Source of the DNA: a virus
Lineage: Duplodnaviria > Heunggongvirae > Uroviricota > Caudoviricetes
Virus record (IMG/VR): IMGVR_UViG_2547132277_000006
Reading direction: 5' to 3' (one strand)
Length of the DNA stretch: 12,615 bases
The notes below the pieces were generated by a model, which worked only from the letters and a program-made list of their open reading frames with translations, was not told where the DNA came from and ran no database searches. Made by a program: the position numbers and the translations under genes. The first letter of the stretch is position 1. Each line of letters begins with the position of its first letter. This document shows positions 2,125 through 2,418 of this stretch, piece by piece.

Positions 2125-2418
2125 TCACCCACGATTAACCAACAGCCAGACCAGCAGACACGCCACCACCGGCACAGCAAAATCCATCAGGCTTGCCACA
2201 TCCCATGCACGTGTATCAAAACCGCCCCACCACGGCATATTCATTCGCTTGCCATGCCCGAACATTTCGATCCAGCGATATTCTGCCTGGGTGTGTTCAC
2301 GCGCAATGAAGAACGTACAACCGGCTATCGCCCCGTAAGCCCAGTTCCCGGTAAAAAGACCAATCAGTAGCTGCGCAGCCACAGCACAAAGCGCATGAAG
2401 GAAAGGTGTTATATCCAT
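2125..2418 (-). CDS. Small inner-membrane protein, 97 aa, two predicted TM segments; function unknown
   Basis: ORF with strong SD (AAGGAGG, 5-nt spacer) embedded at the stop of the upstream gene. Hydrophobic stretches at about residues 6-39 and 75-95; ends LLVNRG. Confidence 0.6.
   Translation of the reverse strand: MDITPFLHALCAVAAQLLIGLFTGNWAYGAIAGCTFFIAREHTQAEYRWIEMFGHGKRMNMPWWGGFDTRAWDVASLMDFAVPVVACLLVWLLVNRG

What the first reader, a model, noticed from the sequence alone, without database searches (positions are those of the whole stretch)
2125..2418. Small two-TM membrane protein at the distal end of the late operon: candidate superinfection-exclusion or moron gene
Seen: a 97-aa ORF with an excellent RBS (AAGGAGG) and two hydrophobic segments, the last gene before the AT-rich region. 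Established: lambdoid phages often place small membrane or lipoprotein genes that block receptor or DNA entry (cor, sie-type) after the tail-fibre genes. Inference: this could be such a host-protection gene still expressed from a cryptic prophage.
Basis: partly seen in the sequence, partly recalled or inferred. Interest (0 to 1): 0.45.

Follow-up and report, generated by a model that had tools for sequence, protein, structure and literature searches.

The report
Tail-fibre-linked small phage membrane protein
This is a real, intact gene for a 97-residue inner-membrane protein from a very common but unstudied phage family that sits just behind tail-fibre genes; it may shield the cell envelope against other phages, but nobody has shown what it does.

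Summary
The ORF at 2125-2418 (minus strand) is real. It encodes 97 aa, has an AAGGAGG Shine-Dalgarno site 4 nt before the ATG, and is the last intact gene of a truncated tail-fibre cluster in a DLP12-type cryptic prophage.

- **Family:** it is a full-length member of PHROG 1443 (unknown function). Phage 21 gp24 is a homologue, and the gene occurs in 1899 of 5426 complete E. coli genomes, always annotated as hypothetical. It has no Pfam, NCBIfam or PADLOC match.
- **Structure:** AlphaFold2 (pLDDT 92) gives three helices. The family keeps an invariant polar cluster (H8, R40-E41, Q44-A45-E46, R58, W72, D79).
- **Selection:** purifying (dN/dS about 0.1).
- **Context:** in temperate sipho-, podo- and myoviruses of alpha-, beta- and gamma-proteobacteria it immediately follows unrelated tail-fibre or tailspike genes, often with overlapping stop and start codons. 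It does not co-vary with the receptor-binding domains.
- **Other settings:** orphan chromosomal copies persist under selection in Aeromonas and Leclercia. A virulent T1-like phage carries only a decayed relic. Some virulent phages carry it among replication genes.

My best reading, at about 0.35, is a receptor-independent, envelope-acting exclusion or protection factor. It is not a lipoprotein, not a gene fragment, and not demonstrably a moron. Its function is untested.

The parts
2125..2418 (-). Target CDS: 97-aa three-helix inner-membrane protein, PHROG 1443 family (identical to RefSeq WP_000355602.1, annotated 'hypothetical protein')
   Evidence: phrog_1443 match at E 2.8e-58, profile positions 1-96 of 97. 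AlphaFold2 pLDDT 91.8 with helices 3-22, 25-52 and 73-95. dN/dS about 0.1.
2419..2431 (-). Translation-initiation region: TAA stop of the upstream gene (2431-2429) overlapping the AAGGAGG Shine-Dalgarno site (2429-2423), then a 4-nt spacer before the ATG
   Evidence: Direct reading of the minus strand. No promoter-like site on this strand between 2418 and 4600.
2429..3133 (-). 234-aa distal tail-fibre protein with a C-terminal Peptidase_S74 intramolecular-chaperone domain. It is the gene immediately upstream and is intact.
   Evidence: Pfam PF13884 at E 3.7e-6. phrog_3299 C-terminus at E 6e-139. The same 234-aa form follows a full-length Stf in Escherichia sp. E1V33 (L088). It shares only its first 32 aa with the 346-aa form found in phages 2G7b and PhiR63_1.
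3143..3424 (-). 93-aa acidic protein of unknown function (phrog_1361, distantly phrog_18574). It is a conserved partner in the fibre module.
   Evidence: It is 89-97% identical in E. coli-type loci and 49-53% identical in phage 21 and L086. Relatives lie next to the TM gene in Comamonas (L104) and in metagenomic contig L144.
3421..4365 (-). 314-aa C-terminal remnant of a side tail fibre (Stf, phrog_1419/5939 type). The N-terminal ~60% and all head and tail genes are deleted.
   Evidence: phrog_1419 positions 474-793 of 793. It aligns to about residues 505-792 of Stf proteins of about 790-800 aa (L088, L085, L004, L133) at 37-40% identity. RefSeq annotates a pseudogene fragment just upstream, next to nohD.
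1995..2105 (-). 3' remnant of a tail-fibre-assembly gene (pseudogene) between the target and the AT-rich appY upstream region
   Evidence: RefSeq annotation of the 100%-identical strain M9682-C1, mapped onto window coordinates.

Best explanation
The ORF is a genuine, intact accessory phage gene encoding a ~97-aa integral inner-membrane protein. The predicted fold is a helical hairpin plus a third helix. An invariant polar cluster (His8, Arg40-Glu41, Gln44-Ala45-Glu46, Arg58, Trp72, Asp79) sits at one membrane interface.

The gene travels as the 3'-terminal gene of receptor-binding-protein cassettes and is made together with them. It is neither part of the virion nor a fibre-specific chaperone.

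Most likely it acts on a conserved component of the Gram-negative cell envelope, either at the inner membrane or on its lipid-linked intermediates. The effect would be to make the infected or lysogenic cell refractory to further phage entry whatever the outer-membrane receptor. That would be a superinfection-exclusion or virocell-protection function in the broad sense of T4 Imm or HK97 gp15.

Shown: the gene, its family, its conservation, its predicted fold and its synteny. Inferred: membrane location, which side the polar cluster faces, the target, and the exclusion phenotype.

In this cryptic DLP12-type prophage the gene has no detectable promoter of its own. It would be transcribed only by read-through of the late operon.
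For: 1. It is a real gene under purifying selection: median dN/dS 0.105 over 692 allele pairs. It is present in 35% of complete E. coli genomes.
2. The fold is confidently predicted as three helices. There are two strong hydrophobic segments.
3. The invariant polar residues persist down to about 30% identity.
4. It is always a stand-alone small protein.
5. It immediately follows unrelated receptor-binding proteins:
   - lambda-type Stf plus the 93-aa protein in phage 21;
   - S74-type fibres in this window, 2G7b, PhiR63_1 and L140;
   - tailspikes in the epsilon15-like phage phiv142-3, L107 and L139;
   - a P2-like fibre and a putative tail-fibre-assembly gene (as annotated in the record) in phiHAP-1, at the spot that corresponds to P2 Z/fun (the P2 gene order is from my own knowledge);
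   - phrog_5939 fibres in Comamonas, Pantoea and Chelativorans.
6. The Stf C-termini are only 33-40% identical and the second fibres are unrelated beyond 32 aa, yet the TM protein stays above 90% identical. Its target is therefore not the fibre's receptor.
7. It is dispensable for virions. The virulent siphophage HC6 keeps only a frameshifted relic after its tailspike.
8. It is beneficial without any phage. Orphan copies sit at fixed chromosomal sites in 4 Aeromonas genomes of 3 species (next to pirin) and in 5 Leclercia genomes, with dN/dS 0.09-0.25 at dS 0.4-0.9. In Leclercia it outlasts the neighbouring bor remnant.
9. Virulent phages carry it outside the tail genes. A T7-like contig has it in the DNA-polymerase/exonuclease block, and Aeromonas phage PS1 has it beside a gene annotated 'putative DNA helicase/terminase'. 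That is the kind of place where exclusion genes of virulent phages such as T4 imm sit (the T4 comparison is from my own knowledge).
10. The family is confined to Gram-negative hosts.
Against: - No phenotype, expression or topology data exist.
- It shows no similarity to any characterised exclusion protein or PADLOC model.
- Near-invariant His/Arg/Glu/Asp motifs across proteobacterial classes look more like an enzyme or ligand site than like typical fast-evolving Sie proteins.
- Tight translational coupling inside tail operons fits a late-cycle function as well as a lysogen function. So does the conserved fibre / 93-aa-like / TM trio, whose order is swapped in L144.
- No promoter or terminator of its own is detected.
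- Genomes carry a median of 2 and up to 7 copies, so it cannot exclude phages that carry the same gene.
- Topology is unresolved. Family-wide K/R counts favour a cytoplasmic conserved loop. The chromosomal copies, which have K/R in the hairpin turn and the C-tail, favour a periplasmic one.
Confidence: 0.35

Rival explanations
1. Late-cycle helper of the adsorption apparatus. In this reading the protein is a membrane-anchored factor made with the fibres. It would assist fibre or tailspike maturation or attachment, or keep new virions from engaging the producing cell's envelope or debris.
For: - An RBP gene lies directly upstream in most of the phage and prophage contexts whose upstream gene I could annotate. 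The exceptions are listed under evidence against.
- Start and stop codons overlap with upstream tail genes.
- The trio of phrog_5939/1419 fibre, phrog_1361/18574 protein and TM protein is conserved from E. coli to Comamonas and in L144, where the order is swapped.
- In L140 the gene lies between a fibre gene and internal-virion and tail-tip genes.
Against: - The upstream RBPs have unrelated folds. They include S74 fibres and tailspikes that, from general knowledge, fold without external chaperones.
- HC6 plaques with only a relic of the gene.
- Orphan copies without any tail genes are under purifying selection.
- Virulent phages place the gene among replication genes or among small genes of unknown function.
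Confidence: 0.22
2. Minimal membrane enzyme or ligand-binding protein. It would act on a universal envelope intermediate such as undecaprenyl-(pyro)phosphate-linked glycan, LPS precursors or phospholipid, and so remodel surface glycans. The outcome would be a lysogenic-conversion or fitness function, with phage resistance at most a side effect.
For: - His8, Arg40-Glu41, Gln44, Glu46, Arg58, Trp72 and Asp79 are invariant down to about 30% identity.
- There is an aromatic MPWWGGF motif.
- The family is restricted to Gram-negative hosts across alpha-, beta- and gamma-proteobacteria and Desulfovibrio.
- It is linked with glycan-binding RBPs, namely tailspikes and Laminin_G/ConA-like fibres.
- Chromosomal orphans in Aeromonas, Leclercia and sphingomonads sit next to housekeeping genes.
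Against: - A 97-aa three-helix protein is very small for a catalyst unless it oligomerises.
- No glycosyltransferase, flippase or acyltransferase partner is consistently adjacent.
Confidence: 0.2
3. Holin-like or lysis-timing membrane protein.
For: - It has about 100 aa and three predicted helices, as class I holins do.
- In T7 and T4 the holin gene directly follows a tail-fibre gene (my own knowledge).
- In phiv142-3 it lies just upstream of the holin/endolysin block.
- In L148 and L149 a 142-aa variant ends a block that contains an Amidase_2 endolysin.
Against: - The lambdoid carriers already have complete lysis cassettes elsewhere. This window has essD-rrrD-rzpD, and phage 21 has its own from general knowledge.
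- A 33-aa conserved hydrophilic loop and a very short C-tail are unlike holins.
- No holin Pfam or PHROG family is hit.
- Stable chromosomal orphans under selection and up to 7 copies per genome argue against a lethal pore former.
Confidence: 0.06
4. Functionless hitch-hiker: a conserved flank that merely serves as a recombination anchor for swapping fibre cassettes.
For: - It is a conserved gene flanking hypervariable RBP segments.
- A relic was carried into a virulent phage along with a tailspike.
- Many IMG/VR prophage calls end exactly at its stop codon.
Against: - There is strong purifying selection at the protein level, including in orphan copies.
- The same residues are invariant across bacterial classes.
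- All 38 distinct alleles examined are intact.
Confidence: 0.04

Closest known systems
PHROG 1443 / phage 21 gp24 (CPT_21_24, UMO75439.1, 'putative membrane protein')
   Same: This is the same family. The HMM match is full length at E 2.8e-58. The window protein is 94.8% identical to the phage 21 protein, which sits in the same position after Stf and the 92-aa protein.
   Different: Nothing differs beyond allelic variation. Here an extra 234-aa S74-type fibre gene is inserted between the 93-aa gene and this one. The family has no known function.
HK97 gp15 and T4 Imm (small inner-membrane superinfection-exclusion proteins that block DNA entry)
   Same: They are small integral inner-membrane phage proteins. 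gp15 is encoded inside the tail-gene block, and both act independently of the outer-membrane receptor (from my own knowledge). They are the best functional analogy for the proposed mechanism.
   Different: No sequence similarity was detected: there are no Pfam or PADLOC hits. This family is far more conserved, carries an invariant polar cluster, and is found across proteobacterial classes. An exclusion phenotype has not been tested.
Cor (phi80/N15/T1) and Llp (T5) receptor-blocking lipoproteins
   Same: They are encoded next to receptor-binding-protein genes. They protect the cell or progeny by disabling phage entry (general statement in PMC11990801).
   Different: Cor and Llp are outer-membrane lipoproteins matched to one receptor (FhuA). 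This protein has no lipobox or conserved Cys, is polytopic, and does not co-vary with the RBP.
P2 Z/fun cargo locus (between tail-fibre assembly gene G and sheath gene FI)
   Same: In phiHAP-1 the homologue occupies exactly this slot, after the gene the record annotates as a putative tail fiber assembly protein and before the sheath gene. This slot is a known hotspot for anti-phage cargo in P2-like phages (my own knowledge).
   Different: Z/fun is unrelated in sequence. In phiHAP-1 the homologue's start overlaps the stop of the upstream gene, so it is not an autonomous cassette.
Serotype-conversion small membrane proteins downstream of tailspikes (epsilon15 gp22, D3 Iap, inhibitors of O-antigen polymerase)
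   Same: They are small hydrophobic proteins encoded right after a tailspike in temperate podoviruses. The Uetakevirus phiv142-3 carries the homologue there.
   Different: Those inhibitors are short, poorly conserved and specific to one Wzy (my own knowledge). This family is conserved across hosts with unrelated O-antigen systems and in rough strains.

Membership tests
PHROG 1443 (uncharacterised phage protein family) | Full-length match to the family HMM | tested here: met
   E 2.8e-58, residues 1-96 on profile positions 1-96 of 97. The protein is 93-100% identical to copies in over 40 lambdoid coliphage records.
Moron (Hendrix/Juhala sense) | Own promoter upstream and terminator downstream, forming an autonomous transcription unit | tested here: inconclusive
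   The consensus scan finds no sigma-70-like promoter on the minus strand between 2418 and 4600 and no terminator after 2125. The Shine-Dalgarno site overlaps the upstream stop codon. A consensus scan cannot exclude weak or non-canonical promoters.
Moron (Hendrix/Juhala sense) | Base composition different from the flanking genes | tested here: met
   GC is 53% over 2100-2399, against 41-47% for the fibre genes and 23-35% downstream. This is weak evidence, because Ala/Gly/Trp-rich membrane proteins raise GC anyway.
Moron (Hendrix/Juhala sense) | Expressed from the repressed prophage | not testable with these tools
   No transcript data were found in the literature searched.
Cor/Llp-type receptor-blocking lipoproteins | Signal peptide with a lipobox ([LVI][ASTVI][GAS]C) and a conserved lipidated Cys | tested here: not met
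   The sequence around Cys11 is H-A-L-C, with Leu at position -1. Cys11 is replaced by A, I, M or V in homologues.
Cor/Llp-type receptor-blocking lipoproteins | Specificity matched to the phage's own receptor-binding protein | tested here: not met
   The TM protein stays above 90% identical while the Stf C-termini are 33-40% identical and the second fibres are unrelated beyond 32 aa.
Known inner-membrane Sie proteins (T4 Imm, P22 SieA, HK97 gp15) and catalogued defence proteins | Sequence homology to a characterised member or model | tested here: not met
   At E<=1 the only Pfam hit is a weak, sub-threshold PhoR N-terminal match (0.066). There are no NCBIfam hits and no PADLOC hits.
Known inner-membrane Sie proteins (T4 Imm, P22 SieA, HK97 gp15) and catalogued defence proteins | Blocks infection or DNA entry of a superinfecting phage | not testable with these tools
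   This needs efficiency-of-plating, adsorption and DNA-entry assays.
Class I holins | Three TMDs with short loops, a charged C-terminal tail, and a position in the lysis cassette next to the endolysin | tested here: not met
   The protein has a 33-aa conserved hydrophilic loop and a 2-3-residue tail. The lysis cassette essD-rrrD-rzpD lies about 4 kb away at 6337-7552. No holin family is hit.
Tail-fibre assembly chaperones (Tfa/gp38 type) | Soluble protein homologous to Tfa families and required for the cognate fibre | tested here: not met
   The protein is hydrophobic and polytopic and hits no Tfa PHROG or Pfam family. It is pseudogenised behind an intact tailspike gene in the virulent phage HC6.

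The most novel reading that the evidence does not exclude
PHROG 1443 would be a new class of minimal (~97-aa, three-helix, probably oligomeric) membrane protein. Its invariant His/Arg-Glu/Gln-x-Glu/Asp cluster would bind or chemically act on a universal lipid-linked envelope intermediate of Gram-negative bacteria. Phages of all three tail morphotypes would package it with their receptor-binding cassettes as a receptor-independent envelope switch. Bacteria would have domesticated it repeatedly, as in Aeromonas, Leclercia and sphingomonads.
Probability: 0.15. Interest if true: 0.7.

Novelty: new variant of a known kind. Interest (0 to 1): 0.42.

Why it matters
About a third of complete E. coli genomes carry this gene, often in several copies, and related phages across the Proteobacteria carry it too. 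Yet it is annotated only as 'hypothetical', and I found no paper that mentions it.

It is attached to the most frequently exchanged part of phage genomes, the receptor-binding cassette, so it spreads with host-range modules. That includes modules now being engineered into therapeutic or delivery phages.

If it is a receptor-independent exclusion or envelope-remodelling factor, it would be a common, overlooked determinant of phage susceptibility in natural E. coli. It would also be a compact new membrane-protein fold-function pair.

If it has no such effect, the tight conservation and the domesticated orphan copies still point to an unknown envelope function. The candidate is cheap to test: 294 bp, with obvious point mutants.

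Tried and rejected
**Searches that gave nothing usable**
- The Foldseek search of viral structures (BFVD) gave nothing at E<=0.001. The top hit is a 42-aa fragment of the same family in phage anhysbys.
- The afdb50 library was unavailable.
- A PDB profile search with the family alignment gave one chance-level hit at E 0.37.
- Scanning 26 diverse members against Pfam at E<=5 returned a weak PhoR N-terminal (TM hairpin) match in 4 of 26 (best E 0.0035, below the cut-off). I treat this as compositional and use it only as a topology hint.
- PADLOC and NCBIfam gave no hits.
- Literature searches by accession, family id, phage 21 and keywords found no functional statement. The phage 21 genome announcement only lists it as a putative membrane protein. 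The Brenes & Laub 2025 paper on the PhiR phages is not held.

**Analyses that failed or stayed open**
- Topology by the positive-inside rule gave contradictory signals between the whole family and the chromosomal copies, so it is left open.
- The AlphaFold2 model of the neighbouring 93-aa protein had pLDDT 46 and was unusable, so no fold search was run on it.

**Ideas considered and dropped**
- A Cu(I) site like that of CusF (H55, M59, M61, W63). H55 and M59 are not conserved.
- A lipoprotein. There is no lipobox.
- A fragment of a larger gene. All relatives are stand-alone.
- The overlapping plus-strand ORFs 2024-2338 and 2035-2370. I did not search these for homologues and treat them as by-products of the minus-strand gene.

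Full report
**Observation**

The ORF lies on the minus strand at 2125-2418 (ATG to TGA, 97 aa). The minus-strand sequence reads ...GGATAAAGGAGGAGTAATG. AAGGAGG sits at 2429-2423, four bases before the ATG, and overlaps the TAA stop of the upstream 234-aa gene.

Hydropathy shows two strong hydrophobic stretches (about 5-24 and 74-95) and a moderate one (25-39). AlphaFold2 on a 25-sequence alignment gives a confident model (pLDDT 91.8, pTM 0.75) with helices at 3-22, 25-52 and 73-95. Two amendments apply: the first hydrophobic region is probably a hairpin, and a 111-bp tail-fibre-assembly pseudogene remnant (about 1995-2105) lies between the ORF and the AT-rich (23-28% GC) appY upstream region.

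**Setting**

Positions 1500-4400 of the window are 100% identical to ETEC O6:H16-type chromosomes. In strain M9682-C1 the surrounding gene order matches the window's ORFs and is a DLP12-type cryptic prophage at tRNA-Arg(TCT). Reading the window from high to low coordinates, the order is:

- intD, rusA and quuD;
- an intact porin gene on the opposite strand;
- essD, rrrD and rzpD;
- iss/bor;
- nohD;
- a deletion that removes the head and tail genes;
- the C-terminal 314 aa of a side tail fibre (3421-4365);
- a 93-aa protein (3143-3424);
- a 234-aa distal fibre with a Peptidase_S74 chaperone domain (2429-3133);
- the target gene, then the tfa remnant, appY and IS1.

Phage 2G7b is a live relative. 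Its order is J, a 199-aa gene, Stf (791 aa), the 93-aa gene, a 345-aa fibre, the 97-aa gene, and then a methyltransferase gene, tfa fragments, an omptin gene and an integrase gene.

**Family**

The protein matches phrog_1443 (unknown function) over its full length at E 2.8e-58. It has no Pfam, NCBIfam or PADLOC family. It is 93-100% identical to 'hypothetical' proteins in more than 40 lambdoid coliphage records. Among them is phage 21 gp24, which its expert annotators could only call 'putative membrane protein'.

It occurs in 1899 of 5426 complete E. coli genomes, at a median of 2 and a maximum of 7 copies. A profile search of 1.84 billion representatives finds 437 clusters, all stand-alone proteins of about 90-145 aa. 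It is therefore not a fragment of a larger gene.

Median dN/dS among 38 distinct E. coli-type alleles is 0.105, and none has an internal stop. The core motif FIAREHTQAEYRWI..FG.GKR.NMPWWGGFD.R.W is invariant among relatives at 56-93% identity. In the 26-sequence alignment that reaches down to about 30% identity, H8, R40, E41 and W72 stay invariant. Q44, A45, E46, R58, D79 and P83 remain at 93% or more in the 175-sequence alignment.

Structure searches return only generic helical bundles.

**Topology**

Topology is unresolved. Family-wide K/R counts favour N-in, hairpin turn out, conserved loop in, C-out. The chromosomal Leclercia and Aeromonas copies carry K/R in the hairpin turn and the C-tail, which favours the opposite orientation with a periplasmic loop. 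The phage 21 record reports TMHMM as two TMDs, N-in and C-in.

**Context elsewhere**

In temperate phages and prophages the gene sits directly behind the last receptor-binding-protein component, whatever that component is:

- lambda-type Stf plus the 93-aa protein in phage 21 and PhiR41_1;
- S74-type fibres in this window, 2G7b, PhiR63_1 and metagenomic L140;
- tailspikes in the epsilon15-like Uetakevirus phiv142-3, Leclercia L107 and L139;
- a P2-like fibre plus a gene annotated 'putative tail fiber assembly protein' in the myovirus phiHAP-1, before the sheath gene;
- phrog_5939-type fibres in Comamonas, Pantoea and Chelativorans prophages.

Start and stop codons often overlap with the upstream gene. 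In L144 the order is fibre, TM gene, then a relative of the 93-aa protein, which is the reverse of the E. coli order. This points to a conserved three-gene module.

The receptor-binding parts nevertheless diverge freely. Stf C-termini are 33-40% identical, and the second fibres are alike only in their first 32 aa. The TM protein and the 93-aa protein stay at about 90%.

**Evidence that it is accessory and acts on the cell**

1. The virulent T1-like siphophage HC6 has, right after its 859-aa tailspike, only a frameshifted relic. This is a 51-aa ORF ending ...RRRANIPWWGGFDWRAWDLPSLLD.
2. Orphan copies sit at fixed chromosomal sites. Four Aeromonas genomes of three species have it next to a pirin gene, and five Leclercia genomes have it near prlC. 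These copies show dN/dS 0.09-0.25 at dS 0.4-0.9. The neighbouring bor is intact in one Leclercia genome, a pseudogene in another, and was not found in the other three. Alphaproteobacterial MAGs have distant copies beside pnp or ligA.
3. Virulent phages carry it away from tail genes. Aeromonas phage PS1 (237 kb) has it next to a gene annotated 'putative DNA helicase/terminase', and a T7-like contig has it in the DNA-polymerase/exonuclease block. One group of contigs has a 142-aa variant at the end of a block containing an amidase endolysin.
4. The family is essentially confined to Gram-negative hosts. The single 'Collinsella' hit is 96% identical to the E. coli gene and is probably contamination (my inference).

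**Mechanism**

Three observations argue against a structural protein, a fibre-specific chaperone or a receptor-matched blocker:

- the gene sits behind unrelated RBPs but does not co-vary with them;
- virions can be made without it;
- it persists in the absence of any phage.

The near-invariant polar cluster at a membrane interface, conserved across bacterial classes, points to a conserved envelope target.

My best-supported reading (about 0.35) is a receptor-independent, envelope-acting exclusion or protection factor. It would be analogous in role to T4 Imm or HK97 gp15, not homologous to them.

The main rivals are:

- a late-cycle helper of the adsorption apparatus (0.22), favoured by the translational coupling and the conserved trio;
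- a minimal enzyme or ligand-binding protein that remodels lipid-linked envelope glycans (0.20), favoured by the enzyme-like conservation;
- a holin-like role (0.06);
- pure hitch-hiking (0.04).

Several points count against classical homotypic Sie or moron status. Up to 7 copies co-reside per genome. No flanking promoter or terminator was detected. In this cryptic prophage the gene would be transcribed only by read-through from the Q-dependent late promoter, which is my inference from the gene order.

**Comparison and novelty**

Membership of PHROG 1443 is met. Membership of the Cor/Llp lipoproteins, the known Sie families, the holins and the Tfa chaperones was tested and not met. Moron status is inconclusive.

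The object is catalogued but functionally unknown. If it works as proposed, it is a new family within a known functional kind.

**Interest**

Interest is moderate at 0.42. Small hypothetical membrane proteins near tail genes are common. This one stands out for five reasons: its prevalence, its cross-class conservation, its linkage to RBP cassettes in all three tail morphotypes, its repeated domestication, and the ease of testing it.

**Dead ends**

The fold and profile searches, the PhoR-like weak hit, the literature and the low-confidence model of the 93-aa neighbour all led nowhere.

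Noticed in passing
window 3143-3424 (-); L104 5429-5995; L144 2076-2393: The 93-aa acidic protein (phrog_1361, distantly phrog_18574) forms a conserved trio with phrog_5939/1419-type fibres and the TM gene, from E. coli to Comamonas and in metagenomic phages. In L144 its order relative to the TM gene is swapped. Its function is unknown, and an AlphaFold2 model was unusable (pLDDT 46).
   Followed up: partly
window 2429-3133 (-): The 234-aa distal fibre with a Peptidase_S74 chaperone domain shares only its first 32 residues with the 346-aa fibre at the same position in 2G7b and PhiR63_1. 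This suggests a conserved N-terminal docking peptide on interchangeable receptor-binding heads. Phage 21 lacks this gene altogether.
   Followed up: partly
L137 (Escherichia phage HC6) 3465-3620: There is an unannotated, frameshifted relic of the TM gene directly after the 859-aa tailspike of a virulent T1-like siphophage. The same relic is in ZCEC08, ST1UNAM and PBM-2/3. It looks like a footprint of tailspike-cassette transfer from temperate phages.
   Followed up: partly
L096 5430-5720 (-) and 5986-6318 (+); L102: In Leclercia a mini-island next to prlC holds the TM gene. L096 also has an intact bor there, L102 a frameshifted bor, and no bor was found in the other three genomes. The TM gene is intact in all five genomes.
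   Followed up: partly
L100 (Silvania confinis) 3779-5771 (-): A 414-aa AAA_15/AAA_21 ATPase and an overlapping 254-aa ORF lie immediately upstream of the orphan TM gene. This may be a two-gene defence system (PARIS- or Gabija-like ATPase).
   Followed up: no
window 8096-9178 (+): An intact 360-aa porin gene (annotated ompC in RefSeq, at the nmpC position of DLP12) sits between quuD and the lysis genes on the opposite strand. In K-12 the equivalent gene is disrupted by an IS element (my own knowledge).
   Followed up: no
window 1-698 and 12322-12615: IS1 sequences lie at both ends of the window. The right-hand copy, an InsB C-terminal ORF on the minus strand, lies just beyond tRNA-Arg(TCT) at 12062-12138. 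In the otherwise identical strain M9682-C1 fimZ begins about 240 bp beyond the tRNA, so this window's strain appears to have an extra IS1 insertion there.
   Followed up: partly
window 5964-6305 (+): An iss/bor-type serum-resistance lipoprotein gene lies on the strand opposite to the late genes. It is a textbook lysogenic-conversion gene in the same prophage.
   Followed up: no
P0150, P0203, P0260; L148 3723-4151; L149 3494-3922: A subgroup of the family (140-146 aa) carries an acidic insertion of about 45 residues in the conserved loop. In L148 and L149 the P0203 gene sits at the end of a block that contains an Amidase_2 endolysin; the contexts of P0150 and P0260 were not looked up.
   Followed up: partly
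L005-L084 (IMG/VR loci): Many predicted prophage contigs end exactly 3 bases after the TM gene's last matched codon. Prophage-boundary callers therefore often treat this gene as the last phage gene.
   Followed up: no
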